Shown: positions 12,541 through 38,562, counted from the first letter of the stretch. The stretch is 52,071 nucleotides of DNA from an uncultured Gammaproteobacteria bacterium (GCA_964436275.1 CAYTBZ010000005.1:1-52071); one strand, 5' to 3'. Program-made: numbers and translations. The notes: generated from the sequence alone by a model not told the origin.

Positions 12541-14811
12541 ATGTATCTGGAAAAAATAGAACTATTTGGCTTTAAATCGTTTGCTCAAAAAACTATTTTA
12601 AAATTTACTCCGGAAATTACCTGCATTGTTGGACCTAATGGTTCAGGAAAATCAAATATTGTTGATTCCATTCGCTGGGTCACCGGAGAACAAAGCTTGA
12701 AAATACTCCGAGGAAAAAAATCAGAAGATATTATTTTCTCTGGTTCCAATAAAAAACCTCGGTCAAACTTAGCTGAGGTTTCTTTATATTTAAATAATGA
12801 AGGAAACAAAAAATTAAATGATTATCCTAGCACTATAGTTTTATCTCGCCGTCTATTTAGAAATGGAGAAAATGAATATCTGCTTAATAAACAAAAAGTA
12901 CGACTCCAAGACATTGTTCTTCTTTTAGCACAAATTAATTTGGGACAAAAAAGTTATGGTATTGTCAGTCAAGGAATGACTGATTATATTCTTTTTTGTT
13001 CTCCTAAAGAAAGGAAAAATTTTTTTGATGAGGCAGTAGGTGTAAAACATTACCAAATCAAAAAAGAAAAAGCACTTAATCAATTAAAAAGGGCTTTGGT
13101 AAATCTTAAGCAAGGAGAATTGATGTTGGCAGAAATAAAGCCAAGATTACGCTCTCTTACCCGCCAAGTAAATCGTCTTAAAAGAAGAGAAGAAATTGAA
13201 AAAAATCTAAAAGAATTAGAAAAAAAATATTATGGTTTTTTCTGGAGAAAAGTTGAAAAAGAATATAATAAAGAAAAGGAGAGAGAAAAAGAAATCAATC
13301 AAAAATATCAAAATCAACTTGAAAAGGTAAACAAACTAAAAAAACAATTAAATCAGATAATGTCAGAAGAGGAAAAGGGAGGAGAGTTATCGAATCTTCA
13401 AAACGAATACGAAAAAGTTTTGAAAATAAAAAATGAACTCATATCTCAGCAGGCCTTATTAAGAGGAAAAATTCTTATAGAAAAGGAAAAGTTATCACAG
13501 AGAGAAAAAGAGAAAGAAATAAATTTTAATCAAGATGACTTGAAACGACTCATTAATTTTCTAAAAGAGATTGATTTAGACCAAGAAAAAATAATCGAAA
13601 TCATAGAAAAAACTAACTCAATAAAGGAGTTAAAAGCGATTAAAAATAAAATAGAAAATATCCAAGAAAAAATTCGTAATTTTCTTAGTAAAATCCAAAA
13701 AAATGAATATTCACCAACTTTTGACGATAAAATTTTAAAAAAATTAGAAAAAGAAAATCAAACTATTATTCAAAAATTAGAAAACATTGAAAAAGAAGTT
13801 CAAAAAATCAAAGAAAAAATCAATCAATATACTCAAAGAGAGGCAACAAAGAGGAAACATATATTTGAACTTCAAAAAAATTATCAAAAAGCACAAAATC
13901 TACTCGACATCCTTAATAATGAACTTAATGAAATAAAGATTAATATCAGCAGAATAGAAACAAAAAAAGAGGACCTTAAAAATGAAATTACGAAAAGAAT
14001 AGGAGATATTAATTTAATAAAAGAAACTTCTGAAGAAGAAATCATTCCAGAAGAATTAGAGGAAAAAATAAATAAACTTCGCTATCAAATAGAAATAATT
14101 GGCGGGATAGATCCAGAAACAGTAAAGGAATATGAAGAAACTAAAAGCCGTTTTGATTTTCTCTCTAACCAAATTGATGATTTAAAAAAAACAATAACCT
14201 CACTTAATAAATTAATAAAAGAATTGGACGAAAAAATTAAAAACCAATTTAACCAAGCCCTAAAAGAGATTAATCAGCAGTTTGATAAATATTTTAAACT
14301 TATTTTTGGAGGAGGGAAGGCACAATTAATTTTACGCGAAGAAACTATTGCTCAAAAAGAAAACGATACTAATCTAGATGAAAAAGAAACAAATTTAGAA
14401 AAAGAGGAAACAAAAACACCCTCTTTAGAGATAGCAAAAGACAAAGAAACATTCTCAGGTTTAGAGGTTTCTGCTTCTTTACCTAGAAAAAAAATAAAAA
14501 GCATTCATGCCTTTTCTGGAGGAGAAAAAGCCCTTACTTCCTTGGCTCTTATCTGTTCTATTATTGCTTATAACCCCCCTCCTTTTGTTATTTTAGACGA
14601 AGCTGATGCTGCTCTTGATGAAGCAAATTCTCAAAAATTTGTCTCTATTTTAGAACAACTTTCTCAAAAAACTCAATTTATTATTATTACTCATAATAGA
14701 GTAACTATGGAAAAGGCAAAAATTCTATATGGAGTCACTATGGACGAAGAGGGAACTTCAAAAATTCTCAGTTTAAATTTAGTTGAGGCAGAAAAAGTAG
14801 CCAAAAAATAA
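12541..14811 (+). CDS. smc: SMC-family ATPase (short, no recognisable hinge)
   Basis: GFKSFA, VGPNGSGKSN Walker A, FSGGEKALT signature, ILDEADAALDEAN Walker B/D-loop, IITHN; long coiled coils; follows rnc. Confidence 0.85.
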   Translation: MYLEKIELFGFKSFAQKTILKFTPEITCIVGPNGSGKSNIVDSIRWVTGEQSLKILRGKKSEDIIFSGSNKKPRSNLAEVSLYLNNEGNKKLNDYPSTIVLSRRLFRNGENEYLLNKQKVRLQDIVLLLAQINLGQKSYGIVSQGMTDYILFCSPKERKNFFDEAVGVKHYQIKKEKALNQLKRALVNLKQGELMLAEIKPRLRSLTRQVNRLKRREEIEKNLKELEKKYYGFFWRKVEKEYNKEKEREKEINQKYQNQLEKVNKLKKQLNQIMSEEEKGGELSNLQNEYEKVLKIKNELISQQALLRGKILIEKEKLSQREKEKEINFNQDDLKRLINFLKEIDLDQEKIIEIIEKTNSIKELKAIKNKIENIQEKIRNFLSKIQKNEYSPTFDDKILKKLEKENQTIIQKLENIEKEVQKIKEKINQYTQREATKRKHIFELQKNYQKAQNLLDILNNELNEIKINISRIETKKEDLKNEITKRIGDINLIKETSEEEIIPEELEEKINKLRYQIEIIGGIDPETVKEYEETKSRFDFLSNQIDDLKKTITSLNKLIKELDEKIKNQFNQALKEINQQFDKYFKLIFGGGKAQLILREETIAQKENDTNLDEKETNLEKEETKTPSLEIAKDKETFSGLEVSASLPRKKIKSIHAFSGGEKALTSLALICSIIAYNPPPFVILDEADAALDEANSQKFVSILEQLSQKTQFIIITHNRVTMEKAKILYGVTMDEEGTSKILSLNLVEAEKVAKK

Positions 14812-14822
14812 TTATTTCTTAA

Positions 14823-14859
14823 AAAATTAAAAATCTCTTAAAAAGAGATTTTTAATTTT
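14823..14859. terminator. Bidirectional terminator between smc and galT-like gene
   Basis: Perfect 17-bp inverted repeat AAAATTAAAAATCTCTT/AAGAGATTTTTAATTTT between convergent genes. Confidence 0.65.
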
Positions 14860-14868
14860 GGTTAAAAA

Positions 14869-15777
14869 TTATTTTTCTCCACGATAAAATTTTGCTGCTT
14901 TTTCAGGAGAAATAGGATTAATAATTATTCCTGAACCAATCTCTACTCCTGCCCAAACCGATCCACGAGGAATAATTTTCATATAAAGATGCTGGTCCTC
15001 ATCATTTATAACTTGGTGAAAATAATAATTATAAGGCAAACCCAACTTTCTAACTTTTTTCAAAATTATTTTCAAAATTTTAGCAAAGGATTTAATCTCC
15101 TCTTTATTTAAATTAGAAATATTATCAACATGCCTTATAGGCATAATCCAGACCTCATAATTATGCATTGAAGCATAAGGACAAAAAGCAATTATATGTT
15201 TATCTTTATAAATTAGCCTACTACTTCTACTTTCTTTCTTAATAATATCACAATAAACACAACTTCCGTGTCTTAACATATATTCATGACACTTTTGAGA
15301 TTTATCAAAAACATGAGGAGGAATAAAGTCAGTAGCAAAAATTTGTGAATGAGAATGAGAAATAGAGGCACCAGCCGCTGCTCCACTATTCTTAAAAATC
15401 AAAATATAAGCAATTCTCTTATTCTTAGAAATCTCATAGGTCCTTTGAGCATAAACCTCTAACAATTTCCTAATATGCCTTTCGGGTAAATCCTCCAATT
15501 CTCTAAAATGGTTAGGCGTTTCAATCACTATCTCCTGAAGACCATATGCCTTTGGATTGTTTAAACTAACTGCTGGATAAATATTTTTAATAACTTTAAT
15601 TAGCCAGTTCTTTTCTGAGCCAACAGTAAGAATAGCCTTAACTTTATTCACTTTTTCCGGACAAAAAGCGCAAGGTGTCTTCTCTCCCCAACCTATTTGA
15701 TGAGGTCTCCGCGCTCTTTTAGGCGCAATAATAACATACTTATCTTGAATATAGTCCTTTCTCAATTCTGACATCAT
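14869..15777 (-). CDS. GalT-like (HIT superfamily) nucleotidyltransferase
   Basis: MSELRKD N-terminus, CAFC zinc motif, QEIVIETP, FKNSG...GASISHSHSQ (HxHxQ nucleophile motif), CVYCD. Confidence 0.85.
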   Translation of the reverse strand: MMSELRKDYIQDKYVIIAPKRARRPHQIGWGEKTPCAFCPEKVNKVKAILTVGSEKNWLIKVIKNIYPAVSLNNPKAYGLQEIVIETPNHFRELEDLPERHIRKLLEVYAQRTYEISKNKRIAYILIFKNSGAAAGASISHSHSQIFATDFIPPHVFDKSQKCHEYMLRHGSCVYCDIIKKESRSSRLIYKDKHIIAFCPYASMHNYEVWIMPIRHVDNISNLNKEEIKSFAKILKIILKKVRKLGLPYNYYFHQVINDEDQHLYMKIIPRGSVWAGVEIGSGIIINPISPEKAAKFYRGEK

Positions 15778-15788
15778 AAAGTTATTTA

Positions 15789-17228
15789 TTAATTATTAAA
15801 AAGTTTTTGATAAAGTTCTAAATATTTTTGAGCAGATTTAGACCAAGAAAAATCAGCTTTCATCGCTCTAATTTGCATCTTTTTCCATTTTTCTTTCTCT
15901 TGATAGAAAATTCTTACTGCTTTTTTAAACGACTTTAGAAAATCCTGAGGGTCATAATTTTCAAAAGTAAAACCTGTCTCTCCTTCAATGACTGTATCCT
16001 TTAACCCGCCAGTACTTCTAACCAGAGGTAAAGTCCCATAACGAAAAGCGATTAATTGACAAAGCCCGCAAGGTTCAAAACGAGAAGGCATTAACAAAAG
16101 ATCACTACCAGCATAAATTTTACGCGCTAATTTAGGGTCAAATTTAATTTGGGCAGATACAGAAAAAGGATATTTATCAGCCATTTCTCGAACTAATTTC
16201 TCATATTTTTGACTACCCTTTCCTAATATCACCAACTGAACTTTCTCCCTCATTATCTCATCAATTGCTGAGTAAATCAAGTCAACTCCTTTTTGAAAAG
16301 TTAAACGACCAATAAAACTAAGTAAAAGCATTTCCTTATCTAATGGAAGGCCAACTGTTTCTTGAAGGTCAATTTTGTTTTCTTTTTTTCTTTCTAAATT
16401 TTGCCAAGAATATCTTATTTTTATTTCCTTATCTGTCTGAGGGTTAAAATATTCTTTATCTATCCCATTAAGGATACCGTATAAATCATTTTTTCTCTTT
16501 CTTAGAACATTTTCTAAATTTTTGCCGAATTCTTTAGTTAAAATTTCTTGAGCATAGGTTGGGCTAACTGTATTAATTAAATCAGCATTTAAAATACCTT
16601 GTTGAAGTAAGTTTATATCTTTACCATAAGGGCCAATTGGCTGTTCTTTTAGAGTTGGCCAATCGTTTTCTTCTAATCCTAAAAAAGATAAGATTTCTTT
16701 TGCCCCCCATATTCCTTGATTGGCTAAGTTGTGAATGGTAAGCAATGTTTTTATCTTTTCTTTTCTGATTTTTATTAATAAAGGAATGACTGCTGTATGC
16801 CAATCATGACAATGAAGAATATCTGGTTGCCAATCAATATAAGAAAAAATTTCCAAAACAGCTTGAGAAAAGAAAAGAAATCTCTGTATCTCTCCCAAAG
16901 TATCGCAAAAGGCAGATTTGCTAAAATAAATCCCTCCTTGAGAAAGAAATTTTTTATTTTCCAAAAGATAAACAATAACTTTAGAAGAGGAAATTTCTCC
17001 TTGATAAAGATTGATTTTTTCTCCTGTTGGACTCAACTTTATTGGTATTCCTTTAAATAGCAATTTCGTCTTAAAGCCAGAATCTTTTATTGGTTGATAA
17101 TAGGGGATAGCAATGCGGATATCTTGACCCAATTTCTTTAATTCTTTAGGTAAAGAGCCAACTACATCGCCTAAACCGCCGACTTTGGCTAAAGGTGTAA
17201 GCTCTGAAGCAACAAAAAGTATTTTCAT
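15789..17228 (-). CDS. glgA: Glycogen/starch synthase (GT5), copy 2
   Basis: KVGGLGDV, HCHDWHT, TIHNLANQG, GILNGID, MPSRFEPCGL and TGGLKDTV motifs. Confidence 0.93.
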   Translation of the reverse strand: MKILFVASELTPLAKVGGLGDVVGSLPKELKKLGQDIRIAIPYYQPIKDSGFKTKLLFKGIPIKLSPTGEKINLYQGEISSSKVIVYLLENKKFLSQGGIYFSKSAFCDTLGEIQRFLFFSQAVLEIFSYIDWQPDILHCHDWHTAVIPLLIKIRKEKIKTLLTIHNLANQGIWGAKEILSFLGLEENDWPTLKEQPIGPYGKDINLLQQGILNADLINTVSPTYAQEILTKEFGKNLENVLRKRKNDLYGILNGIDKEYFNPQTDKEIKIRYSWQNLERKKENKIDLQETVGLPLDKEMLLLSFIGRLTFQKGVDLIYSAIDEIMREKVQLVILGKGSQKYEKLVREMADKYPFSVSAQIKFDPKLARKIYAGSDLLLMPSRFEPCGLCQLIAFRYGTLPLVRSTGGLKDTVIEGETGFTFENYDPQDFLKSFKKAVRIFYQEKEKWKKMQIRAMKADFSWSKSAQKYLELYQKLFNN

Positions 17229-17234
17229 TATTAT

Positions 17235-18137
17235 TTATTTAATTCTTAAAAATTTGTTTAATTCTTTAATACTAAAAGGAGGAAATTTTAAATAATCCCA
17301 AGGACTTCTAATAAAAAACCATTTATTAGGAAGTTCCCCGTGAAAATCAGAACCAATAGTAGGGAAAAGATTAAATTTATGGGCTACTTTTTGCCAATAA
17401 ATAATATCTGACCAACGATGATGAGAGGAAAGTACCTCTAAACCATCTAATCCTTTTCTCTTTAATTCTTTGATAACTCCTAAATCTTTCCAGGAAAGTT
17501 GCTGACTAGGATGGGCTAAAACCGCCTTTCCTCCTGCCTGATGAATGATTTTAATTGCCTTTCCTATCCCCACTTCGGCTTCTGGACAAATTAACCGACC
17601 TTTAATAAAAAAATACCGACCAATAACCTCAGTTAAAAGGATTGGTCTTTTTTTAAAATCTCTAACAACCCTTTTAAAATTTTCTTTAATCAGGGCCTCA
17701 GCCAGTTTATCTATACCCACATAAACAGCCGGAGTAGAAAAAACTTTTATTTCATCTATCTTCCACCCCTGCTTTCTTAAAATCTTAATACTCTTTTTTA
17801 TTATTTCTCTTTTTTTATTTTGTAAATCATTAAGGAGTTTATTTAATTTTTTATTTTTCGGATCAAAATTATAACCCAAAAGATGAAGATGGAATTTTTT
17901 GAAGAAAGTATAAATTTCCACTCCGGGAATATTTTTAAGACCAAATTTCTTAGCCCAATAATTCATCTCCTCAACCCCGTCTATTCCATTATGGTCGGTA
18001 AGGGAAATAATTTTTAAGCCCAATTTTTCTGCTTTTTTAGCCAATTCTTTGGGTGAATAAAGGCCATCAGAATAATAGGAATGGAAGTGTAAATCAATTA
18101 ATTTTTCTTTACTCATTTTATCAATTAATTTTACCAA
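17235..18137 (-). CDS. PHP-domain metal-dependent phosphoesterase (TrpH/YciV-like)
   Basis: DLHFHSYYSDG, LTDHN, GVEI, HLLGY, LAHP and GSDFHG motifs. Confidence 0.88.
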   Translation of the reverse strand: MVKLIDKMSKEKLIDLHFHSYYSDGLYSPKELAKKAEKLGLKIISLTDHNGIDGVEEMNYWAKKFGLKNIPGVEIYTFFKKFHLHLLGYNFDPKNKKLNKLLNDLQNKKREIIKKSIKILRKQGWKIDEIKVFSTPAVYVGIDKLAEALIKENFKRVVRDFKKRPILLTEVIGRYFFIKGRLICPEAEVGIGKAIKIIHQAGGKAVLAHPSQQLSWKDLGVIKELKRKGLDGLEVLSSHHRWSDIIYWQKVAHKFNLFPTIGSDFHGELPNKWFFIRSPWDYLKFPPFSIKELNKFLRIK

Positions 18138-19165
18138 TAATCTTGAGAAATTAATTTAAGTTTTTCAATAATTTTTCTTTTAGATTTCTTATTCTTCTCT
18201 AAGAAAATCAGGTTGGCTGTTATTTGAACTAAATTTCTTAAAGCAAAATATCTTATTTTTATTTTATCATCTTGATTGATTCCCTTTTTGAAATAACTAT
18301 CCAAAAACAATTGTTTTGCCTTTTGATAAAATCTTTTATGCTTTTTCCCTAAATAAAAAAGAGACATTGATTTCAATTGAACCAAAAAGCGGGCGATATC
18401 ATCAAAATAATCATAAAGATAGGCATCACTAAAATCAATTATTTTTATTTTTTTACCATTGCGCAAAAAATTTCCTAAATGAATATCTCCATGAGAGATA
18501 CCATATTCTTCAACTTTATCAAATAAATAAAAATTATTTCTTTTTATATAATTCATTCTTTTGAGAACCTTCTTTATAGGTAAAAGACCTGGGCGATAAT
18601 ACTTTTTTAAAAGATACAACCAATGCCGAATTTCTGAATTTTCTACATTTTTTGTTTTCAAAGGAAATTTAGTTTTATTGCTTATTGGCAAATGATGAAT
18701 TTTGTAAAGCAATTTAGCCATTGAGGGAACAAAATTCAAAATTATATCGGTCTCTCTTTTTTCTAAAAGAGTTTGAAAGCTTGTTCCTGGCACATTTTCA
18801 TAAAGAAGCAAATTATATTTTTCTAAATAATCCAATGGCTTAACCAAATATTTTTTAAATCCCTTCTGTCGGAGGTATTTAAGGAAGAGATAATGATTTC
18901 TTGGATTATCAAAAGCGCAATTTTTAGTCCTTTTCAATCTTCCCTGAATCGTCTTCTGGCGTTTTGAAGAATTAAATTTTATTTTTAATTTATACTCTAA
19001 AGATAAACTTTCATAATTAAGAAAATTCTTTCTTAACTTGATTTCAACCTCATCAACGGCTAATGCTTTTGGAAAATATCTCTTAATTCTTGAATTAAAA
19101 AATTTTTTCATAAATAAAGGGTTGAGAATTTGTTGAATTAGTTCTTTCTTTACTTGATTTCTCAT
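18131..19165 (-). CDS. APH/choline-kinase-fold phosphotransferase
   Basis: LLLYENVPG hinge region, HGDIHLGNFL catalytic loop, IIDFSDA metal-binding loop. Confidence 0.85.
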   Translation of the reverse strand: MRNQVKKELIQQILNPLFMKKFFNSRIKRYFPKALAVDEVEIKLRKNFLNYESLSLEYKLKIKFNSSKRQKTIQGRLKRTKNCAFDNPRNHYLFLKYLRQKGFKKYLVKPLDYLEKYNLLLYENVPGTSFQTLLEKRETDIILNFVPSMAKLLYKIHHLPISNKTKFPLKTKNVENSEIRHWLYLLKKYYRPGLLPIKKVLKRMNYIKRNNFYLFDKVEEYGISHGDIHLGNFLRNGKKIKIIDFSDAYLYDYFDDIARFLVQLKSMSLFYLGKKHKRFYQKAKQLFLDSYFKKGINQDDKIKIRYFALRNLVQITANLIFLEKNKKSKRKIIEKLKLISQDYW

Positions 19166-19166
19166 T

Positions 19167-21248
19167 TTATGAGGTTAAGAACCAAATTAATCTTTGAAGT
19201 AAAGCGTCTATTTTAGAAAGAATAATAATTAAAGGTTTTTTAAAATTAAATTTTATTTTCTTCTCTCGAGATAAATTATAGCCAGTAATCTTAAATTTAA
19301 ACAAAACTCCTTCCTTTGAGCAAGGAATTTCTACTTTCAATTGACCTTCCTTATCTTCTTTGAAAAAACGAGGAAGCCAGCCAAGCGTCTGGGAAACAAC
19401 AGCAACTTTTAAATATTTCCCTTTTAATTTATCTCTTTTCTTTAAATAATCCAATACCTTGGCTAATAAACTGTTCTTTTCGAAAATTATTTCTAATTTA
19501 TTTCCTTTTTTTAAGCGATAAGTCAGTTGACCAAAAGAATGTACTTTTTCTTTTTTATCAAACTCTATTTTAGAACAACTATTCCAGCCCTCTCTTAAAT
19601 AAAATTTAATCTCTTTTCCGGGAAACTCTGCTAGATAAAAATTATTATATTTATCCCAAAAAGCCCCTAAAGGATGAGATTGTTTATCTTTTTTGTCAAT
19701 AACTGCTTTAATTTTAGAAAAAAGAGTCAAAAATTGTTCTTCTTGAAATTTATCCTTATTAAAATCCTTAAAATAATTCTCTGCCAAAGGAGAAAATTCA
19801 TCTAAAGAATGCTCCCAAAATGATTTTAAGGAAGGAAGCGTCCTGCTTGCCCTTAAATCATCAATTATATGAAGAACATCATAAATATCAGTTCCTTGTT
19901 TTAACTTTTCTAAAGCATCGCGCCATTTTATCGCTTTTTCAAATTCTAAATTTGCTGCCGCTTTTTTCATCTCATCCTCCAATTCTAAGATAATTAAATT
20001 ATACCATTCTTTAGACACTCTTTCTTTAAAGGGCTTTTTGTTCTCTGTCCCTAATGCCTGACGATAGCGATGCCTAATAATTCCTTTCCTCTGCCAATCA
20101 AAAGCAATAGCCAAAATTTTTTGATAATACTCATTGGCTTTCTCTTTCTCTTTTAAAGAAGCATTAGGTAAAGCATTAACCACTTCTCTCAATTGATAAG
20201 CACCTTGTTCTATCATCTCTAAACTCCACCAAGGTTTTGCTGAAGCCCACCAAAACTGGTCTGATTGAAGCGACTTATCTAAAAGTTCCCTTGCCTTTCC
20301 TAAGGGCTGATTTTCCCTTTCTGCTTTTTCTACTAAATCAATTACAAAATAAGTAAAATCCCATTGAAGTTTATGAGTAGGATTAGAAGGATCCTGCCAA
20401 AGAAGGAAAGGAGAAAAAGTTCCCTGTTTTTTCTCCTTATCTAACCAGAAATCCTGTTCTTCAGACGACCAAGTAGATTCCCGGACTTCAATTTCTTCAT
20501 CAACGCTAAACTCTTCTACTAGTTCAGAAACTAATACATTCTTAAAAGGCGCTTCTTGATAAAGATTAAAAAGAAACTTCTCTAAACCAGGGCGATGGTG
20601 GCCAAAAGTTTCACCATCCATTACTGTCAGAAGATAACGGTTTTTTTTCAATTCTTCCCCTAATTCAGCCAAAAGTGATGCTTTGCTTCGTATTATTGCT
20701 GAAAGAATTAGAACACTAATTCTTTTATCACGAAAGACAATTTTTAAAGAGGGAATATTTTTAATTGAATAAATTTTCTGAAAATCAGGTTTTATTGAAG
20801 AAGCAAATTCTTCAGCCACTATCCACTGAAATCCTAACTGACTGACAAGATTGGCTAATTTGTAACTAAAAGCCAATTCAGGAGAAAAAAATCCTTTTGG
20901 CTGATAATTTTTGCCAAAGTATTTCTGACAAGTTTGATTATGCAAATTAATTTGTCTTTTAATCTCTTTCTCCGGAAGAAGGGGTAAAAAGGGATGATAC
21001 ATTGCGCTACCAGTAAGTTCTATTTGTCCTCTTCTAAGTAAATATCCAATATCATCAATAACATCATCATAGCCATTCTGCTCTAAAAGTTCTAACAATC
21101 CGCCATTAACATTCAAGGTCAATCTTGCTTTTTTGTTCTTTTTAAACCCATCTAAAAGAGGACGATAAGATTCATTAACTATTCTTTCCAAAATATCACT
21201 TTGCTGATTATGTGGTTGATAAATGTGAAGAAAATTCGCCCAACGCAT
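19167..21248 (-). CDS. Glycoside hydrolase family 57 protein with UVR motif and extra C-terminal domain
   Basis: FLHIYQP, ELTGSAMYHPFLPL, FFSPE (nucleophile Glu), MDGETFGHH (acid/base Asp), SDQFWW; ELEDEMKKAAANLEFEKAIKWRD is a UVR-like motif. Confidence 0.85.
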   Translation of the reverse strand: MRWANFLHIYQPHNQQSDILERIVNESYRPLLDGFKKNKKARLTLNVNGGLLELLEQNGYDDVIDDIGYLLRRGQIELTGSAMYHPFLPLLPEKEIKRQINLHNQTCQKYFGKNYQPKGFFSPELAFSYKLANLVSQLGFQWIVAEEFASSIKPDFQKIYSIKNIPSLKIVFRDKRISVLILSAIIRSKASLLAELGEELKKNRYLLTVMDGETFGHHRPGLEKFLFNLYQEAPFKNVLVSELVEEFSVDEEIEVRESTWSSEEQDFWLDKEKKQGTFSPFLLWQDPSNPTHKLQWDFTYFVIDLVEKAERENQPLGKARELLDKSLQSDQFWWASAKPWWSLEMIEQGAYQLREVVNALPNASLKEKEKANEYYQKILAIAFDWQRKGIIRHRYRQALGTENKKPFKERVSKEWYNLIILELEDEMKKAAANLEFEKAIKWRDALEKLKQGTDIYDVLHIIDDLRASRTLPSLKSFWEHSLDEFSPLAENYFKDFNKDKFQEEQFLTLFSKIKAVIDKKDKQSHPLGAFWDKYNNFYLAEFPGKEIKFYLREGWNSCSKIEFDKKEKVHSFGQLTYRLKKGNKLEIIFEKNSLLAKVLDYLKKRDKLKGKYLKVAVVSQTLGWLPRFFKEDKEGQLKVEIPCSKEGVLFKFKITGYNLSREKKIKFNFKKPLIIILSKIDALLQRLIWFLTS

Positions 21249-21252
21249 AGAT

Positions 21253-22446
21253 TTAAAAGAAATACTGATTAACTTTTTTATTTTTTTTATAGACCTGTCT
21301 TATTTTTCTAAATTTTTTTGATTTATCCCATTCTCTCAACAATTCTTTAATTTTATGAGATAAATTTATCACTTTTTTCTTATCTTTTAAAGGGATTGAT
21401 TTTGAACTAAAAACAATTTTTTCTAAACCATTTAAATAATCCTCAACAAAACCCGGATACCACCAAGGCATTGCTGAAGCCCACCAAAAAGGATCACTAT
21501 TAAGATATTTATCTAATTGTTCACGCCCGTTTTTAGAAGGATACTTTTTTATCAATCTCAAAACTAAATAGAGTAACTTCCACAAATAATAATGAATCAT
21601 ATTGCCCGGATAATTCCAAAGAGCATAAGGAATGTTTTCTTCAAGCTCATTCTCTTTTGAAGACCAAGAGGAGGGAAAAGGTTCAATTATTTGAGGTCTT
21701 GATGGTAAAATTTTCAAAAGTTCAGAATAAAATTTTGTCTCTGTTTTCTTGGCTATTCTTTGCCAAACTTTAGCCATTCCTTTATGGTGATGACCTAGAT
21801 TTTCTCCGTCCATAGCCGTCAAAATATATTTTTTACATCTCTTATCTTTACTTACTGAGCGGAAAAATTTTTTTGCTGAATTAAGCCAAGAACTTAAGAA
21901 TAAGTCAGAAAGAAAACGATTTCTAAAAAAAACTTTTAAATTTGTTCCCTTAATTTGATAAAGTTTGTCAAAAGAAACTAAGCCAAACTTTTTTTGATAA
22001 GCAATCTCATCAAGAATAATCCATTGATAGCCCAATTTATCAATTATTTTAGCTAATTTTTGGCTATAAGCCATTTCTGGGGGGAAAAAGCCCCTTGGTT
22101 GATAGATTTTACCAAAATATTTTCGATTAACTAAATAATTGAGTTTAATCTGACGGATAATTTCATCCTCAGGCAATAATGGTAAGAAAGAATGAAATTT
22201 AGCGCTTCCTAATAACTCTATTTGATTCCTTTTGGCCAAAAACCTTATTTTCTGAATTATTCTTTTATATCCGTTTTTTATTAAAAGTTCGGTTAAACTT
22301 CCGCTGATATTAAGAGAAATTTTTATCTGTTTATTATTTTCTAAAATAAAAAAAATTTTTTGATAACTCTCTCTAACTACTTTATCTAAAATCTTCTTTT
22401 TTTGATTTGCTGGCTGATAAATATGTAAAAGATTAGCCCAAACCAT
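21253..22446 (-). CDS. Glycoside hydrolase family 57 protein (short paralog)
   Basis: LLHIYQP, ELLGSAKFHSFLPL, FFPPE, MDGENLGHH and SDPFWW motifs. Confidence 0.85.
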   Translation of the reverse strand: MVWANLLHIYQPANQKKKILDKVVRESYQKIFFILENNKQIKISLNISGSLTELLIKNGYKRIIQKIRFLAKRNQIELLGSAKFHSFLPLLPEDEIIRQIKLNYLVNRKYFGKIYQPRGFFPPEMAYSQKLAKIIDKLGYQWIILDEIAYQKKFGLVSFDKLYQIKGTNLKVFFRNRFLSDLFLSSWLNSAKKFFRSVSKDKRCKKYILTAMDGENLGHHHKGMAKVWQRIAKKTETKFYSELLKILPSRPQIIEPFPSSWSSKENELEENIPYALWNYPGNMIHYYLWKLLYLVLRLIKKYPSKNGREQLDKYLNSDPFWWASAMPWWYPGFVEDYLNGLEKIVFSSKSIPLKDKKKVINLSHKIKELLREWDKSKKFRKIRQVYKKNKKVNQYFF

Positions 22447-22456
22447 TTAATAATAA

Positions 22457-23935
22457 TTAATGCTGATTGTTCTTCATTTTTAAAGCCCGGCGATAAAGAA
22501 GTAAGTATTTTTTAGTAGGTAAATTCCAAGAAAATGACTCCTTCATTGCCTGCCAAGTCAATTTTCCCCAAACTTGAGGATATTTATAAGTTTCCACAGC
22601 CCGAGTAATGGCTACCAAGAGATCAGCTGGTTCATAAGTTTTAAAAACAAATCCATTTCCTCTTCCTGTGCGTGGATTAAAATCAGAAATTGTATCTGAA
22701 AGTCCTCCAGTCTCATGAACAATAGGAATAGAACCGTAACGCAAACTTTTTAATTGTGAAATTCCACAAGGTTCAAAACGAGAAGGCATTAAGTACATAT
22801 CTGAACCAGCAAAAACCTTTCTCTCCATTTCTTCAGAAAAAGGATTAATAAAAGCAATTTTAGAAGGATATTTACGACTTATTTTTTTAAAAAAATCAAC
22901 GTATTCTTTTTGTCCACTGCCAACAATAACTAACTCTAAATTTTGTCTTAAAAGAGGTTTAATTATCTCTTTAATCAATTCAAATCCTTTTTGTTCGGTT
23001 AAACGACTGGTTAAACCAAGAATAGGTATATTTTTATCTACTTCTAAATTTAATTCCTTTTGTAAAGCCAATTTATTCTTTATTTTCTTATCTAAAGAAT
23101 TTTGATCATAATTATAGTAAATATATTTATCAAAAAGGGGATTAAAAACGCTATAATCAATCCCGTTTATTATTCCAAAAACACGTTCCTTTCTTTTGCG
23201 TAAAAGCCCATCTAATTCTTGACCAAATTCTGGGGTAAGAATTTCTTTAGCATGACGTTCAGAAACAGTATTAATAACATCAGCAAAACGAATTCCTCTT
23301 TTCATAAAATTTATTCTTTCAATTTTGTCTTTATCTTGAGGAGGCAAATTTTTTCCGTCGTCCCTTTCCTCTAACGGAATTTTCCACCAACTATGCCCCA
23401 ACTGAAAACTAATGTTATGAATTGTATAAACAATGGCTGTTTGATTAAAAAGAGGATTCTCTTTTTCGTTTAATTTTAGATAATTGGGGATTAGACCTGT
23501 CTGCCAATCATGACAATGAATTATGTTTGGTTCAAAATTCAACAATTTTAATAATTCTATAGAAGCCAAATCAAAGAGCATAAAACGAAGATTATCATTA
23601 GGATATCCATATAACTTGGAATGGCAGCCAAATAATTTATATTGGTCAACAAAATAAACAGGTAAATCTTTGATTAATTCACTTTTAAAAAAACGACAAA
23701 GATATTTTTCTCCAGCAACAGAAAGAGGAATTTCTGAATCAACTAATTCGGCTTTAATTTCGCCTTTATTTATTTTTTCTCGAATAAATCCATATAGAGG
23801 AGTAATAATAATCACTTGGTGACCCAATTTAACTAAATGAGTAGTTAAGGCGCTAACCACATCGGCCAAACCACCAGTTTTAGAAAAAGGGGCTACTTCA
23901 GAAGCAATATGAACAATTTTTAAATGACGAGACAT
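22457..23935 (-). CDS. glgA: Glycogen/starch synthase (GT5), copy 1
   Basis: KTGGLADV, HCHDWQT, TIHNI, GIINGID, MPSRFEPCGI and TGGLSDTI motifs. Confidence 0.93.
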   Translation of the reverse strand: MSRHLKIVHIASEVAPFSKTGGLADVVSALTTHLVKLGHQVIIITPLYGFIREKINKGEIKAELVDSEIPLSVAGEKYLCRFFKSELIKDLPVYFVDQYKLFGCHSKLYGYPNDNLRFMLFDLASIELLKLLNFEPNIIHCHDWQTGLIPNYLKLNEKENPLFNQTAIVYTIHNISFQLGHSWWKIPLEERDDGKNLPPQDKDKIERINFMKRGIRFADVINTVSERHAKEILTPEFGQELDGLLRKRKERVFGIINGIDYSVFNPLFDKYIYYNYDQNSLDKKIKNKLALQKELNLEVDKNIPILGLTSRLTEQKGFELIKEIIKPLLRQNLELVIVGSGQKEYVDFFKKISRKYPSKIAFINPFSEEMERKVFAGSDMYLMPSRFEPCGISQLKSLRYGSIPIVHETGGLSDTISDFNPRTGRGNGFVFKTYEPADLLVAITRAVETYKYPQVWGKLTWQAMKESFSWNLPTKKYLLLYRRALKMKNNQH

Positions 23936-23941
23936 AATAAA

Positions 23942-25051
23942 TTAAATAACTTTTAGAAATCGGCTGCTTAGAATAAACATTGCTTCAGACCAACAAAGAG
24001 GATAAATCCCTTGACGAAAATCATCAAAAATTTGTTCAGGTAAATATCCTTTATATTTATCCGCCTTTCTAACCACCCAAAGGTAATATTTCCAAGCCCT
24101 TTTCTTGTTTCCTCTTAAAACCCAATAAATACTCATCCAAAAATTTAAGGCTGGCCAAGCACCCCCTCCTTCCCAAGCTGAACCCTCACTGTCAAAATAA
24201 TCATACTCATAACGATGAACACCGCCTTTTATTACTATTCTTTTTTCCATCATTTCTATTGTCTTTTTTATTCTCAAATCATCTGCTGGATAAATTTCAA
24301 ATGGCCAAACTAGACCCAAAAGAGAAGCGTCTATATTTTTATCATCTATTCTTCCGTGGTTACGATAAAAATATCCGTCTTTTTCTGAATACGCCTCATC
24401 AATTTTGGAAATCATTTGTAGAGCGGTTTCTTTCCATACTTTTTTAGCAATAATTTCATAGGCACAAAGAAGTCCTCGGGCACAAGCAGCCAAAGAGTAA
24501 GTAAAATTATTTTGCATTGTTGTTGAGGTCTGACGACTTGTTTCTTCCCAAAGGTCAACAGTGTGTCGCAAAAAATATTTTCCTCCCCAAACCTCTACTA
24601 ATCCATTAGCTAACCTTTCTATTAATTCCTGAAATTTAAGAGCCCTTTTTAAATCTTTTTTAAAGTACTTATAATAATGGTGAATAGTATAAAGAGTAAT
24701 ACCCATTTGGTCTGGTTGAAATGCCTTGCCCATACTACCAAATTGTCCGTTGGTAGAATAATTAGCAAAAAGAAGTTTTTCTCTTTTAAAATCACGCGGC
24801 CTTTCTTCTAACCATTTAAAAAATGGTTCCTGAATCTCCATCTTTAAAATCTCTCCGGCTAAACAAGTAAAGCAAGCATCTCTTGGCCAAACCCAGCGGT
24901 AATTAAAGGCCTCACGAGGATAATAAGGTTTATCTGTATTAGCAGCAACAATAGCGCCATTCTCCAAAACACAATCTTTAATTACCTCCTTAGCCCTTTT
25001 AATCATCTTTTTTATTTTTGCTTTTAAGGTAGGAGAAAGTTGATTAAACAT
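23942..25051 (-). CDS. GH15-like glucoamylase/six-hairpin glycosidase
   Basis: YRWVWPRD, DLWEE (general acid region), DASLLGL and YLPEQ (general base region) motifs. Confidence 0.8.
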   Translation of the reverse strand: MFNQLSPTLKAKIKKMIKRAKEVIKDCVLENGAIVAANTDKPYYPREAFNYRWVWPRDACFTCLAGEILKMEIQEPFFKWLEERPRDFKREKLLFANYSTNGQFGSMGKAFQPDQMGITLYTIHHYYKYFKKDLKRALKFQELIERLANGLVEVWGGKYFLRHTVDLWEETSRQTSTTMQNNFTYSLAACARGLLCAYEIIAKKVWKETALQMISKIDEAYSEKDGYFYRNHGRIDDKNIDASLLGLVWPFEIYPADDLRIKKTIEMMEKRIVIKGGVHRYEYDYFDSEGSAWEGGGAWPALNFWMSIYWVLRGNKKRAWKYYLWVVRKADKYKGYLPEQIFDDFRQGIYPLCWSEAMFILSSRFLKVI

Positions 25052-36348: not shown

Positions 36349-37699
36349 AATTTATTGCTTTTTTATAATCCAAAAGGCCTTGATTGACCATTCTAATCAT
36401 TTCCTTAAAAATCTCCTCTACAGCCAAGGGGTCTTTTCCATAATACCAATCTTGAGCAGTTAAAACTTGTTGGGTAAAGGGGGCTAAATCAAAATTTTCT
36501 AATTGAACATCAATCAACTCGCGTAAAGCCGGTGGTTTTTTAGCCGCATCTAAATAGGTCTTAACTTCTTTAGCAGAAGTTGTGGCAAATTGAAGAAAAT
36601 CCCAAGCAGCATCTTTGTTTTGACTATGAGAAGAAACTGTTTCTACCCAATAGCGAGCATAATTTACTTGCTTTAAAGAACCTTCTATCTGAGGCACGGG
36701 AACTACTCCAAAATCAAGTTTTGGCGCTCTTGCTTGGATAATAGGCAAATGATAGGAATAGCCGAAAAAGAAAGCCACTTTTCCATCAATAAAAGCATCT
36801 AAAGAATTAGGCATTTCAGAATTCCAAGTGTAAACTTCTTTGGCTGGATTAGCAAAGTCAGTATAAAAACGCAATGCCTCTACCCCGGGAAAATAACTTT
36901 TATCTGTTTCTAAAGGTTGGTTAAAACTGGCACGCCAATTTTTAATCATTTTTGTGCCGTTTTGCAACATCAATAAAGATAAAATATCAGCAGACCTTTC
37001 AATATTGTCAGCTGTACCCAAAGCAGCACCTGATTGAATAAAATTGCCTTCAGTATCTTGAATAATCAATTTTTTAACATCTTCTTTAAATTCTTCCCAA
37101 TTAGTTGGCGGTTTGGCAATGCCCGCATTATCTAACATATCTCGATTATAATAAAGAGCCAAAGTGTCAATGGCTAAAGGTAAAGCGTAAATTCGATTCA
37201 TCTTGCTTTGTGGATCATACCTAACTACATCATTAAAAACAACATCAACAAATTTTTGACGCAACTCGTCAGGAGTAATGGTGCGCTTTTCCTCAGCAAC
37301 AATTTTGGCTGTTTTTTTCAAAGCATTGCCCGAATATTTGATGTTTACCATTTTAATCTTTGGAGGCAAAGGATAAATAAATTTACTGTATTTTGTTACC
37401 CAATCAGCCGGAATAGAAAAAATGTCCGGACCACGGCCCTCAGCCCAGGCCTCTAAAAGAGTTTGCTCGTATTCTTCATAACGAAGTTTACGACAATTTA
37501 TCGTTATATTTGGATGAAGACGATGATAATCAGCAATAATTTGATTAAGAACATCTGGCGACTCCCAAACACGCCAATAGGTTAAAGTAATTGGTTCAAG
37601 TTTTACTTTTGGTTTACTAGAAAGACAACTAAAACCACTTGTAGAAAGAATTACAATAAGAAAAAGAATAAAAAGTTGATAAATTCTTCCTTTTTTCAT
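36317..37699 (-). CDS. Extracellular solute-binding lipoprotein (sugar-binding family 1-like)
   Basis: Lipobox-like LSTSGFSC, GPDIF, YALPLAIDTLALYYNRDML, PPTNWEEF, AWDFLQF. Confidence 0.85.
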   Translation of the reverse strand: MKKGRIYQLFILFLIVILSTSGFSCLSSKPKVKLEPITLTYWRVWESPDVLNQIIADYHRLHPNITINCRKLRYEEYEQTLLEAWAEGRGPDIFSIPADWVTKYSKFIYPLPPKIKMVNIKYSGNALKKTAKIVAEEKRTITPDELRQKFVDVVFNDVVRYDPQSKMNRIYALPLAIDTLALYYNRDMLDNAGIAKPPTNWEEFKEDVKKLIIQDTEGNFIQSGAALGTADNIERSADILSLLMLQNGTKMIKNWRASFNQPLETDKSYFPGVEALRFYTDFANPAKEVYTWNSEMPNSLDAFIDGKVAFFFGYSYHLPIIQARAPKLDFGVVPVPQIEGSLKQVNYARYWVETVSSHSQNKDAAWDFLQFATTSAKEVKTYLDAAKKPPALRELIDVQLENFDLAPFTQQVLTAQDWYYGKDPLAVEEIFKEMIRMVNQGLLDYKKAINYAVERVNQTY

Positions 37700-38562
37700 A
37701 TCTTCAAATTTTTAAGATAATTTTTGAATTCTTCTTTAAACTTTTCTCTCTCTAAAGCAAAATCAACAATTGCCTTTAAAAATTCTAACTTATTACCACA
37801 ATCATAGTATCTACCTTGATATTGATAAGCATAAAAATCCCTTTGAGTTAAAAGTAGATCCACTGCATCAGCTAACCAAAGCTCCCCTCCTTTACCAATT
37901 TCTGTTTTCTTTACTGCTTCAAAAATATCTGGAGTAAAAATATAACGACCAGCAACAGCTAAATTAGAAGGCGCATCTTTAGGTAAGGGTTTCTCCACAA
38001 TATCTTTTACTTTATAAACTCTATCTTCCACTTTTTCTCCGTCAATCACTCCGTAACGATGGACTTTTTCTTTAGCGACTTGAGTAACTCCAATAACCGG
38101 ACTTTGATATTTATAAAATACTTCCATCATCTGTTTGGTTGCTGGAACTTCCCCTTTGATTAAATCGTCGCCAAAAGCAAAAACAAAGGGTTCTGAGCCA
38201 ATTAACTTTTCTACATTAAGAACCGGTGTAGCATTTCCATAAGGACCTTTCTGCCGAAGATAAACAAAATAAGCCATCTCTGAAAGATGACGGATTTCTT
38301 CTAATTCCTTTATTTTATTATTTCTTTCTAAATGAACTTCTAAGGACTTATTTTGGTCAAAATGATCTTCAATCGCTCTTTTGCCTTGCCCAGTGACTAA
38401 AATAATCTCCTCAATGCCTGAGTCAACCATTTCCTCTACAATATACTGAATGACCGGCTTGTCAATAATGGCCAGCATTTCCTTTGGCTGGGCTTTGGTT
38501 GCTGGTAGAAAACGGGTACCAAAGCCAGCTACTGGAATCACAGCTTTTTTTATTTTTTTCAT
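37696..38562 (-). CDS. galU: UTP--glucose-1-phosphate uridylyltransferase
   Basis: KAVIPVAGFGTRFLPATKAQPKEML, FGDD, RYGV, VEKP, GRYI and YDCG motifs. Confidence 0.93.
   Translation of the reverse strand: MKKIKKAVIPVAGFGTRFLPATKAQPKEMLAIIDKPVIQYIVEEMVDSGIEEIILVTGQGKRAIEDHFDQNKSLEVHLERNNKIKELEEIRHLSEMAYFVYLRQKGPYGNATPVLNVEKLIGSEPFVFAFGDDLIKGEVPATKQMMEVFYKYQSPVIGVTQVAKEKVHRYGVIDGEKVEDRVYKVKDIVEKPLPKDAPSNLAVAGRYIFTPDIFEAVKKTEIGKGGELWLADAVDLLLTQRDFYAYQYQGRYYDCGNKLEFLKAIVDFALEREKFKEEFKNYLKNLKI

What the first reader, a model, noticed from the sequence alone, without database searches (positions are those of the whole stretch)
14869..15777. GalT-like enzyme may replace GlgC as the nucleotide-sugar supplier
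Seen: an HxHxQ nucleotidyl-transfer motif (HSHSQ) directly downstream of glgA2, with no galK or galE in the window. Known: GalT-family enzymes use a covalent His-NMP intermediate, and the Arabidopsis GalT-like protein At5g18200 acts as an ADP-glucose phosphorylase. Inference: it interconverts ADP-glucose, glucose-1-phosphate and ADP/Pi, or exchanges with UDP-glucose from GalU (37696..38562), feeding the synthases without PPi-releasing GlgC.
Basis: partly seen in the sequence, partly recalled or inferred. Interest (0 to 1): 0.6.

Follow-up and report, generated by a model that had tools for sequence, protein, structure and literature searches.

The report
ADP-glucose-phosphorylase-like partner of glycogen synthase
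The gene labelled "GalT-like" in this tiny Patescibacteria genome is real and is most likely not a galactose enzyme but a relative of plant ADP-glucose phosphorylase tied to one of the two glycogen synthases; comparison across genomes does not support the idea that it stands in for the missing ADP-glucose-making enzyme GlgC.

Summary
Observation confirmed. Window 14869-15777 (minus strand) encodes a 302-aa HIT/GalT-branch enzyme with an intact HSHSQ motif and Zn site, 11 nt behind glgA2. It is the last gene of a conserved alpha-glucan operon.

The best solved relative is Arabidopsis ADP-glucose phosphorylase, full length. No galK, glgC or GT35 phosphorylase was found in this 658-kb, 100%-complete genome.

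The "replaces GlgC" reading does not gain support:
- glgC was found in 0 of 301 sampled Patescibacteria, whether or not they carry this gene.
- 28 of 59 GlgA-bearing genomes have neither gene.
- Outside the phylum the family coexists with canonical glgC in at least 16 of 46 genomes, once directly adjacent.
- Equilibrium favours ADP-glucose breakdown.

New here:
- The partner is specifically the GlgA2 paralogue (17 of 18 adjacent or fused cases).
- GlgA-GalT-like fusion proteins recur in about 17 clusters, and GH57 fusions also exist.

Most likely the enzyme interconverts ADP-glucose + Pi and ADP + glucose-1-P beside GlgA2. Together they form an ADP-cycling loop whose net reaction equals glucan phosphorylase. 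Direction and nucleotide specificity are untested.

This scan has flagged the same gene pair on many other genomes.

The parts
14869..15777 (-). GalT-like / ADP-glucose-phosphorylase-like HIT enzyme, 302 aa (P0001)
   Evidence: ORF. Pfam and NCBIfam hits. PDB 1Z84 E=2e-45 over the full length. The family profile scores 298 bits on 1Z84, 206 on Pyrobaculum GalT and 159 on E. coli GalT.
15343..15357 (-). HSHSQ (H141-S-H143-S-Q145), the HxHxQ nucleotidyl-transfer motif
   Evidence: Translation check. H141, H143 and Q145 are invariant in a 35-sequence family alignment. The motif aligns to HSHSQ of At5g18200.
15661..15672 (-). CAFC (C36, C39), the Cys pair of the structural Zn site; H90 (15508-15510) and H141 complete it
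   Evidence: The Cys pair is lost in several GlgA2-linked relatives.
15789..17228 (-). glgA2, GT5 glycogen synthase paralogue that is the specific partner of the GalT-like gene
   Evidence: TIGR02095 541 bits. Placed on the GlgA2 side of the GlgA tree; 17 of 18 GalT-adjacent or fused GlgAs fall there. K15, D21, an aromatic residue at E. coli position 355 and EPCG are kept.
14829..14853 (.). AT-rich hairpin (11-nt arms, 3-nt loop) between the convergent smc and GalT-like genes; a possible bidirectional terminator
   Evidence: Sequence read. It does not meet the G+C criterion of the terminator scan.
17235..25051 (-). Upstream genes of the same operon: PHP phosphoesterase (17235-18137), APH-fold kinase (18131-19165), GH57+UVR (19167-21248), GH57 (21253-22446), glgA1 (22457-23935), GH15-like (23942-25051)
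   Evidence: The same order recurs in related contigs.
37696..38562 (-). galU, UTP--glucose-1-phosphate uridylyltransferase; with RmlA on contig C8 it is one of only two NDP-sugar pyrophosphorylases in the genome
   Evidence: TIGR01099 350 bits against a cut-off of 326.8. Genome-wide PF00483 search. RmlA and RmlD identified.

Best explanation
The gene encodes an NDP-glucose:phosphate nucleotidyltransferase of the At5g18200 type, most likely ADP-glucose phosphorylase (EC 2.7.7.36). Through a covalent His143-AMP intermediate it interconverts ADP-glucose + Pi and ADP + glucose-1-phosphate.

It works as a unit with the GlgA2 paralogue of glycogen synthase, and in some relatives the two are one polypeptide. 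This genome has no GlgC, so GlgA2 and this enzyme are the only recognisable proteins that could make or use ADP-glucose. Together they would form a closed loop in which ADP is recycled. The net reaction is glucan(n) + Glc-1-P <-> glucan(n+1) + Pi, which is the reaction of glucan phosphorylase, an enzyme the genome also lacks.

The direction would be set by the Glc-1-P/Pi ratio. Under ordinary ratios it runs towards Glc-1-P (mobilisation). It is therefore not an energy-driven substitute for GlgC. GlgA1, and possibly GlgA2, may instead draw on UDP-glucose from GalU.

Shown: gene, motifs, homology, operon, fusions, gene absences. Inferred: substrate (ADP- versus other NDP-glucose), the coupling, and the direction.
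For: Enzyme class:
- Full-length match to At5g18200 (E=2e-45).
- The family profile favours it by about 90 bits over the nearest true GalT.
- All catalytic and Zn residues are present, and H141/H143/Q145 are invariant.

Not a Leloir enzyme:
- galK is absent here and present in only 2 of 301 phylum genomes. One of those has a separate classical galT-galK pair.

Coupling to GlgA2:
- The gap to glgA2 is 11 nt.
- The order GlgA2 then GalT-like recurs in three contigs of 64-70% identical homologues, in 19 of 31 sampled genomes holding both genes, and in 14 of 34 further Patescibacteria contigs.
- 17 of 18 adjacent or fused GlgAs lie on the GlgA2 side of a well supported split (SH-aLRT 99).
- An 827-aa GlgA-GalT-like fusion exists in a WWE3 genome. 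About 17 distinct fusion clusters and several GH57-GalT-like fusions exist in public data.
- Adjacency to GlgA occurs in all three deep clades of the family.

Closed loop:
- No GlgC, GT35, GlgB or GlgX was found by HMM or by tblastn.
- GlgA2 keeps the canonical KxGGL Lys, Asp21 and the aromatic residue at the adenine-stacking position in 37-38 of 38 sequences; GlgA1 often does not.
- Among GlgA-bearing Patescibacteria, GT35 phosphorylase is found in 2 of 31 genomes with the GalT-like gene and in 12 of 28 without it. It is found in 3 of 37 genomes with GlgA2 and in 11 of 22 with GlgA1 only.
- The plant enzyme has a Km of about 7 uM for ADP-glucose (PMC4136846), which suits an enzyme working at the very low ADP-glucose level a reversed synthase would give.
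Against: - No assay exists. The second-closest solved relative (Pyrobaculum, 6K5Z) is deposited as a genuine GalT, so homology alone does not fix the substrate.
- The link to glgA is not obligatory. 113 of 242 GlgA-negative Patescibacteria also carry a homologue, some closer to this protein (42-65% identity) than many GlgA2-linked ones. There it often sits beside GT4 or GT28 glycosyltransferases.
- 13 of 37 GlgA2 genomes lack the gene.
- The complementarity with GT35 rests on about four lineages (families f9, f30, f67 against f38) and is not significant when counted by family.
- Outside the phylum, 28 of 46 genomes with a homologue also have GT35.
- Three sampled genomes (G078, G122, G264) have only GlgA2-type synthases. 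GlgA2 must therefore be able to build glucan, which speaks against a purely degradative module.
- That bacterial GT5 synthases reverse at a useful rate is assumed, not shown.
Confidence: 0.45

Rival explanations
1. One reading: the enzyme runs in the synthetic direction (ADP + Glc-1-P -> ADP-glucose + Pi). It is the cell's supplier of ADP-glucose for GlgA1 and GlgA2 in place of the PPi-releasing GlgC.
For: - The genome has no GlgC or other recognisable ADP-glucose source.
- The enzyme sits directly behind, and in relatives is fused to, a canonical-looking ADP-glucose-type synthase.
- Three sampled genomes have GlgA2-type synthases only, plus the GalT-like gene.
- In GlgA-less genomes it neighbours other NDP-sugar-using GT-B glycosyltransferases, as a donor-regenerating enzyme would.
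- PMM/PGM and PGI are present to provide Glc-1-P.
Against: - There is no complementarity with glgC. It was found in 0 of 301 Patescibacteria whether or not the gene is present, and 28 of 59 GlgA-bearing genomes have neither.
- Canonical GlgC coexists with the family in at least 16 of 46 genomes of other phyla, next to it in L152 and in the same cluster in L153.
- The net reaction Glc-1-P + glucan -> glucan + Pi is the reverse of phosphorolysis. At usual Pi/Glc-1-P ratios it is unfavourable. The Keq of the plant enzyme is about 5-40 towards ADP + Glc-1-P (my recollection of McCoy 2006; textbook values for phosphorylase).
- GT5 synthases that use UDP-glucose without GlgC are documented (Pseudomonas, PMC8084333; Aeromonas, PMC3341381). 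GalU-like genes are present in 44 of 59 GlgA-bearing genomes, including this one.
Confidence: 0.2
2. The enzyme is a one-way drain or salvage enzyme for NDP-glucose, independent of a reversed GlgA. It would clear ADP-glucose or UDP-glucose as a brake on glucan synthesis, or split nucleotide sugars scavenged from a host cell, recovering Glc-1-P and a nucleoside diphosphate without loss of the phosphoanhydride bond.
For: - This is the direction reported for the plant enzyme, which has a low Km (PMC4136846).
- The family coexists with GlgC, GlgA and GT35 in many non-Patescibacteria, where a regulatory drain is the simplest role.
- Patescibacteria are nucleotide scavengers with small genomes (general knowledge).
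- The gene occurs in 113 GlgA-negative genomes.
Against: - This cell has no known ADP-glucose source to drain.
- A drain acting on UDP-glucose would run a futile cycle with GalU.
- No nucleotide-sugar importer has been identified.
- It does not explain why the partner is specifically GlgA2, or why the two are fused.
Confidence: 0.15
3. The enzyme is a true hexose-1-phosphate uridylyltransferase. It would use UDP-glucose from GalU and a sugar-1-phosphate (galactose-1-P or another, perhaps made by the operon's APH-fold kinase) to give a different UDP-sugar plus Glc-1-P.
For: - NCBIfam galT_1 scores 104.2 against a cut-off of 102.1.
- The second-best solved relative is deposited as a functional GalT (6K5Z).
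- An APH-fold anomeric kinase followed by a GalT-type enzyme is the logic of the bifidobacterial GNB/LNB pathway (bioRxiv 10.64898/2026.09.13.751320; the kinase part is my own knowledge).
- GalU is in the genome, together with a GalE-like SDR.
Against: - No galK is found here, and it is found in only 2 of 301 phylum genomes.
- The galT_1 match covers only residues 76-263, and PRK11720 scores 121 against 448.
- The family profile prefers At5g18200 by about 90 bits.
- Fusion to glycogen synthase and to GH57 points to glucose chemistry.
- The kinase has no detectable likeness to known sugar-1-kinases.
Confidence: 0.1

Closest known systems
Arabidopsis thaliana At5g18200, ADP-glucose phosphorylase (EC 2.7.7.36; PDB 1Z84, 1ZWJ, 2H39)
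   Same: Full-length homology (E=2e-45; profile 298 bits). Identical GAS-SHSHSQ active-site block. Same CxxC + His + His Zn site and the same two-half HIT architecture.
   Different: This protein is bacterial and about 45 residues shorter. It is embedded in a glycogen operon, paired or fused with a glycogen synthase, and sits in a cell with no ADP-glucose pyrophosphorylase. Its activity is untested. The physiological role of the plant enzyme is itself unclear.
Pyrobaculum aerophilum GalT (PDB 6K5Z, 6K9Z)
   Same: Second-best solved relative, full length (E=1e-39). Similar short N-terminus. HxHxQ motif (HPHSQ).
   Different: Deposited as a working Gal-1-P uridylyltransferase. It scores about 90 bits lower with the family profile. 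No galactose pathway accompanies the gene studied here.
Leloir GalT of E. coli and human (PDB 1HXP, 5IN3)
   Same: Same superfamily branch, a covalent His-NMP ping-pong mechanism, and a Zn site.
   Different: Only a partial and much weaker match (E=1.6e-18, residues 76-263). No galK partner. Different operon context.
GlgC, ADP-glucose pyrophosphorylase
   Same: Both link Glc-1-P and ADP-glucose and sit in glg operons.
   Different: Unrelated fold (NTP_transferase + LbH). GlgC uses ATP and releases PPi, which drives synthesis. The two genes coexist in many genomes and are even adjacent.
Alpha-glucan phosphorylase GlgP/MalP (GT35)
   Same: The proposed net reaction of GlgA2 plus this enzyme equals that of GT35. 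GT35 is missing here, and it is rarer in Patescibacteria that have GlgA2 or the GalT-like gene.
   Different: No homology. The proposed route uses two enzymes and a nucleotide carrier instead of one PLP enzyme. The complementarity is weak and does not hold outside the phylum.
GlgC-independent GT5 glycogen synthases that use UDP-glucose (Pseudomonas aeruginosa PA2165; Aeromonas hydrophila GlgA)
   Same: Precedent that a bacterial GT5 GlgA in a genome without an ADP-glucose-forming GlgC can be fed by UDP-glucose (PMC8084333; PMC3341381).
   Different: Those systems have no GalT-like partner. Donor preference of the two GlgAs here is unknown.

Membership tests
ADP-glucose phosphorylase (At5g18200 type), class I GalT branch of the HIT superfamily | Full-length sequence likeness, closer to At5g18200 than to characterised GalTs | tested here: met
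   Single protein: 1Z84 158 bits, 6K5Z 140, 1HXQ 70. Profile of 35 relatives: 298, 206 and 159 bits.
ADP-glucose phosphorylase (At5g18200 type), class I GalT branch of the HIT superfamily | HxHxQ motif with the nucleophilic second histidine | tested here: met
   H141-S-H143-S-Q145. The three residues are invariant in 35 sequences.
ADP-glucose phosphorylase (At5g18200 type), class I GalT branch of the HIT superfamily | Structural Zn site (Cys-x-x-Cys plus two His) | tested here: met
   C36, C39, H90 and H141 align to the plant enzyme's CPFC, SPVH and HSHSQ. The Cys pair is absent in several GlgA2-linked relatives.
ADP-glucose phosphorylase (At5g18200 type), class I GalT branch of the HIT superfamily | Catalyses ADP-glucose + Pi -> ADP + Glc-1-P and lacks GalT activity | not testable with these tools
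   This needs an enzyme assay. I could not derive residues that set adenine versus uracil preference, because the structural paper is not held.
Leloir galactose-1-phosphate uridylyltransferase (EC 2.7.7.12) | Passes curated equivalog models | tested here: inconclusive
   TIGR00209 scores 104.2 against a cut-off of 102.1, but over residues 76-263 only. PRK11720 scores 121 against 448.
Leloir galactose-1-phosphate uridylyltransferase (EC 2.7.7.12) | Accompanied by galactokinase (and GalE) in the genome | tested here: not met
   galK none in a 100%-complete genome. In the phylum sample it is found in 2 of 301 genomes against 144 of 301 for this gene. The GalE-like SDR scores 208 against 262 bits.
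Functional replacement of GlgC | Phyletic complementarity: present where glgC is absent, absent where glgC is present | tested here: not met
   glgC 0 of 301 regardless of this gene. 28 of 59 GlgA-bearing genomes lack both. At least 16 of 46 genomes of other phyla have both, adjacent in L152.
Functional equivalent of GT35 glucan phosphorylase (together with GlgA2) | Phyletic complementarity with GT35 among glucan-making genomes | tested here: inconclusive
   GT35 in 2 of 31 against 12 of 28 GlgA-bearing genomes (naive p = 0.0016), but this rests on about four lineages. 28 of 46 non-Patescibacteria have both.
Obligate functional partner of GT5 glycogen synthase (Rosetta-stone pair) | Recurrent gene fusion and conserved adjacency with one orthologous group | tested here: met
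   827-aa fusion. About 17 fusion clusters. 17 of 18 adjacent or fused partners are GlgA2-type. The pairing is not universal: 113 GlgA-negative genomes carry the gene.

The most novel reading that the evidence does not exclude
GlgA2 and the GalT-like enzyme, separate here and one polypeptide in some relatives, form a two-enzyme, ADP-cycling glucan phosphorylase. GlgA2 runs backwards to make ADP-glucose from glucan + ADP. The HIT enzyme splits it with Pi to Glc-1-P and returns the ADP. The same near-equilibrium module can store glucose from Glc-1-P without spending ATP when sugar phosphates are high. This would give energy-poor, GlgC- and GlgP-less Patescibacteria a reversible, cost-free glycogen buffer, and it would give ADP-glucose phosphorylase its first clear physiological role.
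Probability: 0.3. Interest if true: 0.75.

Novelty: new variant of a known kind. Interest (0 to 1): 0.55.

Why it matters
ADP-glucose phosphorylase has been known since the 1960s and was solved structurally in 2006, but it has no agreed physiological role. I found no paper on a bacterial one: 47 papers hold the term, nearly all of them plant papers, and one uses it as a misnomer for GlgC. Nothing links it to Patescibacteria glycogen genes.

The enzyme here is the fixed partner, and elsewhere the fusion partner, of one glycogen-synthase paralogue, in a phylum in which none of 301 sampled genomes has GlgC. That makes the question directly testable with three recombinant proteins or one natural fusion protein. 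The answer would show how a large part of bacterial diversity builds or mobilises glycogen without the textbook GlgC step, and whether glycogen synthases are used in reverse in vivo. It would also correct a widespread "galactose-1-phosphate uridylyltransferase" or "DUF4931" annotation.

Tried and rejected
- Complex prediction on GlgA2 + GalT-like (alignments A2, A1) gave no verdict (score 0.00). This is no evidence either way.
- The look-up of sequencing runs listed no RNA holder. Expression and co-transcription could not be checked, and read laying was not used.
- A search for longer (fused) relatives with P0001 itself found none. The fusions appeared only with the fused protein's own GalT part as query.
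- McCoy et al. 2006 could not be read. The Keq values are therefore from memory, and I could not map the adenine-binding residues. The position equivalent to E. coli Asn77 is invariant (N65), but the following Asp78 is missing in both the plant phosphorylase and the Pyrobaculum GalT, so it does not discriminate.
- The idea that the roughly 590-aa ORFs beside GlgA2 in GalT-less genomes might be divergent GT35 phosphorylases was rejected. They are tandem APH-fold kinases.
- The APH-fold kinase showed no usable match to maltokinase or other sugar-1-kinases in the PDB (best E=0.027, amicoumacin kinase).
- The promoter scan between glgA2 and the gene gave no more sites than shuffles, and the terminator scan found nothing by its G+C rule.
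- GalE as evidence for a Leloir route was rejected. The best SDR is below cut-off, and the other SDRs belong to an rml cluster.
- Structure prediction and fold search were not run, because the sequence match to solved structures is already full length.

Full report
**The observation**

Window 14869..15777 is an ORF on the minus strand (302 aa, P0001). HSHSQ is residues 141-145 (nt 15343-15357) and a CAFC pair is residues 36-39.

The motif is part of a full-length homology:
- Pfam GalP_UDP_transf, DUF4931_N and HIT.
- A phmmer match to Arabidopsis At5g18200 (PDB 1Z84) at E=2e-45 over residues 3-299. It shares the GAS-SHSHSQ block and all four Zn ligands (C36, C39, H90, H141).
- Next come Pyrobaculum GalT (6K5Z, 1e-39) and, far weaker and partial, E. 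coli GalT (1.6e-18).

A profile of 35 relatives widens the gap: 298 bits (At5g18200), 206 (Pyrobaculum) and 159 (E. coli). R24, N65, E82, R112, N130, H141, H143 and Q145 are among the columns invariant in that alignment.

**Surroundings**

The gene starts 11 nt after the stop of glgA2 (15789..17228). It is the last gene of a tight minus-strand operon:
- GH15-like
- GlgA1
- GH57
- GH57+UVR
- APH-fold kinase
- PHP phosphoesterase
- GlgA2
- GalT-like

. An AT-rich hairpin (14829-14853) separates it from the convergent smc gene. GalU lies at 37696..38562 (350 bits against a cut-off of 326.8).

**The genome**

The genome is a 658-kb, 22-contig, 100%-complete Patescibacteria assembly.

It contains no:
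- GlgC. The only NTP_transferase genes are GalU and an RmlA next to RmlD.
- galK.
- GT35 phosphorylase.
- GH13 GlgB or GlgX.
- Second GalT-family gene.

It does contain a PMM/PGM, a PGI/PMI and a sub-threshold GalE-like SDR.

**Is it a Leloir enzyme?**

I searched a sample of 301 Patescibacteria genomes, each at least 80% complete. The GalT-like gene is found in 144 (E<=1e-10). galK is found in 2, and one of those has a separate classical galT-galK pair. A galactose role is therefore very unlikely.

**Does it replace GlgC?**

- glgC was found in none of the 301 genomes, while GT5 glgA is found in 59. Of those 59, 31 have the GalT-like gene and 28 do not. The absence of GlgC is a trait of all 301 sampled genomes and is unrelated to this gene. 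Half of the glucan makers manage with neither.
- A GalU-like gene (E<=1e-50) is present in 44 of the 59. GT5 synthases that use UDP-glucose in the absence of an ADP-glucose-forming GlgC are documented (PMC8084333; PMC3341381).
- Outside the phylum, I looked at 46 genomes that carry a 33-40% identical homologue: Planctomycetota, Anaerolineales, Bathyarchaeia and others. At least 16 have a canonical GlgC (390-514 bits). The two genes are adjacent in an Atribacter contig and share a cluster in a Eubacteriales contig.
- Chemistry adds two points. A His-NMP enzyme transfers the nucleotidyl group, so UDP-glucose cannot be converted to ADP-glucose except via free Glc-1-P. The equilibrium of the plant enzyme lies towards ADP + Glc-1-P, with Keq about 5 and about 40 with Mg. 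That figure is my recollection of McCoy et al. 2006, which is not held here. The Km of about 7 uM for ADP-glucose is quoted in PMC4136846.
- Coupled to a synthase, the net reaction is the reverse of glucan phosphorolysis. At ordinary Pi/Glc-1-P ratios that is unfavourable (textbook thermodynamics, own knowledge).

**What it is tied to**

- In three contigs with 64-70% identical homologues, the gene again follows a GT5 synthase at the end of the same operon.
- Of the 31 sampled genomes with both genes, 19 have them adjacent and 2 have them within 6 kb.
- 14 of 34 further Patescibacteria contigs show GlgA2 then GalT-like.
- A maximum-likelihood tree of 90 GlgA sequences separates a GlgA1 clade (52 rows, SH-aLRT 99) from the rest. 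17 of the 18 GlgAs that are adjacent or fused to the GalT-like gene are on the GlgA2 side.
- In a WWE3 genome, one 827-aa ORF joins GlgA2 to the GalT-like domain through a low-complexity linker.
- A database search found about 17 distinct fusion clusters (656-921 aa, 33-100% identical in the GalT part). It also found GH57-GalT-like fusions.
- Adjacency to GlgA occurs in all three deep clades of the family. One clade is 13 of 13 GlgA2-linked.
- GlgA2 keeps Lys15 and Asp21 (E. coli numbering) in all 38 sequences and an aromatic residue at position 355 in 37 of 38. GlgA1 keeps them in only 24, 18 and 22 of 52. That position 355 stacks on adenine is my recollection.

**Limits of that tie**

- 113 of 242 GlgA-negative genomes also have the gene. 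Some of these copies are closer to P0001 than many GlgA2-linked ones.
- In those genomes it sits next to GT4 or GT28 glycosyltransferases in 8 of about 18 loci examined.
- 13 of 37 GlgA2 genomes lack it.

**Mechanism proposed**

Suppose the enzyme acts on ADP-glucose and GlgA2 is an ADP-glucose-type synthase. In a cell without GlgC, these two are then the only proteins that can make or consume ADP-glucose. Together they amount to glucan(n) + Glc-1-P <-> glucan(n+1) + Pi with ADP recycled, which is a phosphorylase equivalent.

Some support for a mobilising role comes from GT35. It is found in 2 of 31 GlgA-bearing genomes with the GalT-like gene against 12 of 28 without. It is found in 3 of 37 genomes with GlgA2 against 11 of 22 with GlgA1 only.

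I tested this idea further and it weakened:
- The trend rests on about four lineages.
- 28 of 46 non-Patescibacteria have both genes.
- Three genomes have only GlgA2-type synthases, so GlgA2 must also synthesise.

I therefore commit to the enzyme class and to the coupling with GlgA2. I rate the reversible, phosphorylase-equivalent loop as the most likely working model (0.45) and net supply in place of GlgC at 0.2.

**Context and caveats**

- This scan has already flagged the same pair on many other genomes. Earlier follow-ups also concluded that it does not replace GlgC and that fusions exist. I reached both points with my own searches.
- One genome of the 301 (G150) is unpublished. It contributes one count to the GalT-like and GalU tallies, and no claim depends on it.
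- No RNA data were available.

Noticed in passing
window 17235-19165; L075 6086-7670 (G183); L073 6555-8177 (G129): The APH-fold kinase in the operon is followed by a phosphatase of a different fold in different lineages: PHP here, and a histidine-phosphatase (His_Phos_1, 188 aa) in family f22. Replacement by an unrelated fold at the same position suggests a conserved kinase/phosphatase cycle on an unknown glucan or sugar substrate.
   Followed up: partly
L042 7162-8931 (G001), L038 8458-10278 (G102), L049 6754-8514 (G222): In genomes that have GlgA1 + GlgA2 but no GalT-like gene, a 586-606-aa protein made of two tandem APH/kinase-like domains lies between GH57 and GlgA2.
   Followed up: partly
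GlgA1 sequences of loci L027-L088 (alignment made): GlgA1 often lacks the KxGGL lysine (K in 24 of 52; otherwise S, N or T) and Asp21. The loss is commoner in genomes that also have GlgA2 (22 of 33 lack K) than in GlgA1-only genomes (6 of 19). This hints at a changed donor or role for GlgA1. In this window both GlgAs keep K15.
   Followed up: partly
P0139, P0142, P0143, P0144: Proteins of 575-880 aa fuse a GH57 domain to a GalT-like domain. This is a second kind of fusion tying the family to alpha-glucan enzymes. In Planctomycetota the two are adjacent genes (L155, L158, L163, L168, L169).
   Followed up: no
L032 (G083:C7 38656-40594): One of the larger Patescibacteria genomes (1.6 Mb) has a classical-type galT (it matches P0001 only over residues 76-263) directly followed by galK (381 bits). 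A true Leloir pair therefore exists in the phylum and looks different from the gene studied here.
   Followed up: partly
L090, L091, L093, L094, L097, L098, L109, L110 and L100: Contigs with 52-64% identical homologues and the typical Patescibacteria glucan operon carry record titles such as 'uncultured Gammaproteobacteria bacterium' or 'Pirellulales bacterium'. This is probably mislabelling or bin contamination, not horizontal spread.
   Followed up: no
L152 4926-7300; L153 7119-12600: In an Atribacter contig the GalT-like gene is immediately followed by a canonical glgC. In a Eubacteriales contig, GH57 x3, glgC, GalT-like and glgA form one cluster. Running both enzymes together would amount to ATP + Pi -> ADP + PPi, a cycle that would need regulation or may have a use of its own.
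   Followed up: no
window 14700-17400: Near-identical DNA is held by contigs of at least 14 public runs from some 10 or more studies, mostly labelled hydrothermal vent or sediment metagenomes. The organism seems widespread in that habitat. I did not lay the reads.
   Followed up: no
window 12541-14811: The SMC gene convergent with the GalT-like gene is only 756 aa, with two separate matches to the 1181-position SMC model. It is much shorter than usual bacterial SMC.
   Followed up: no
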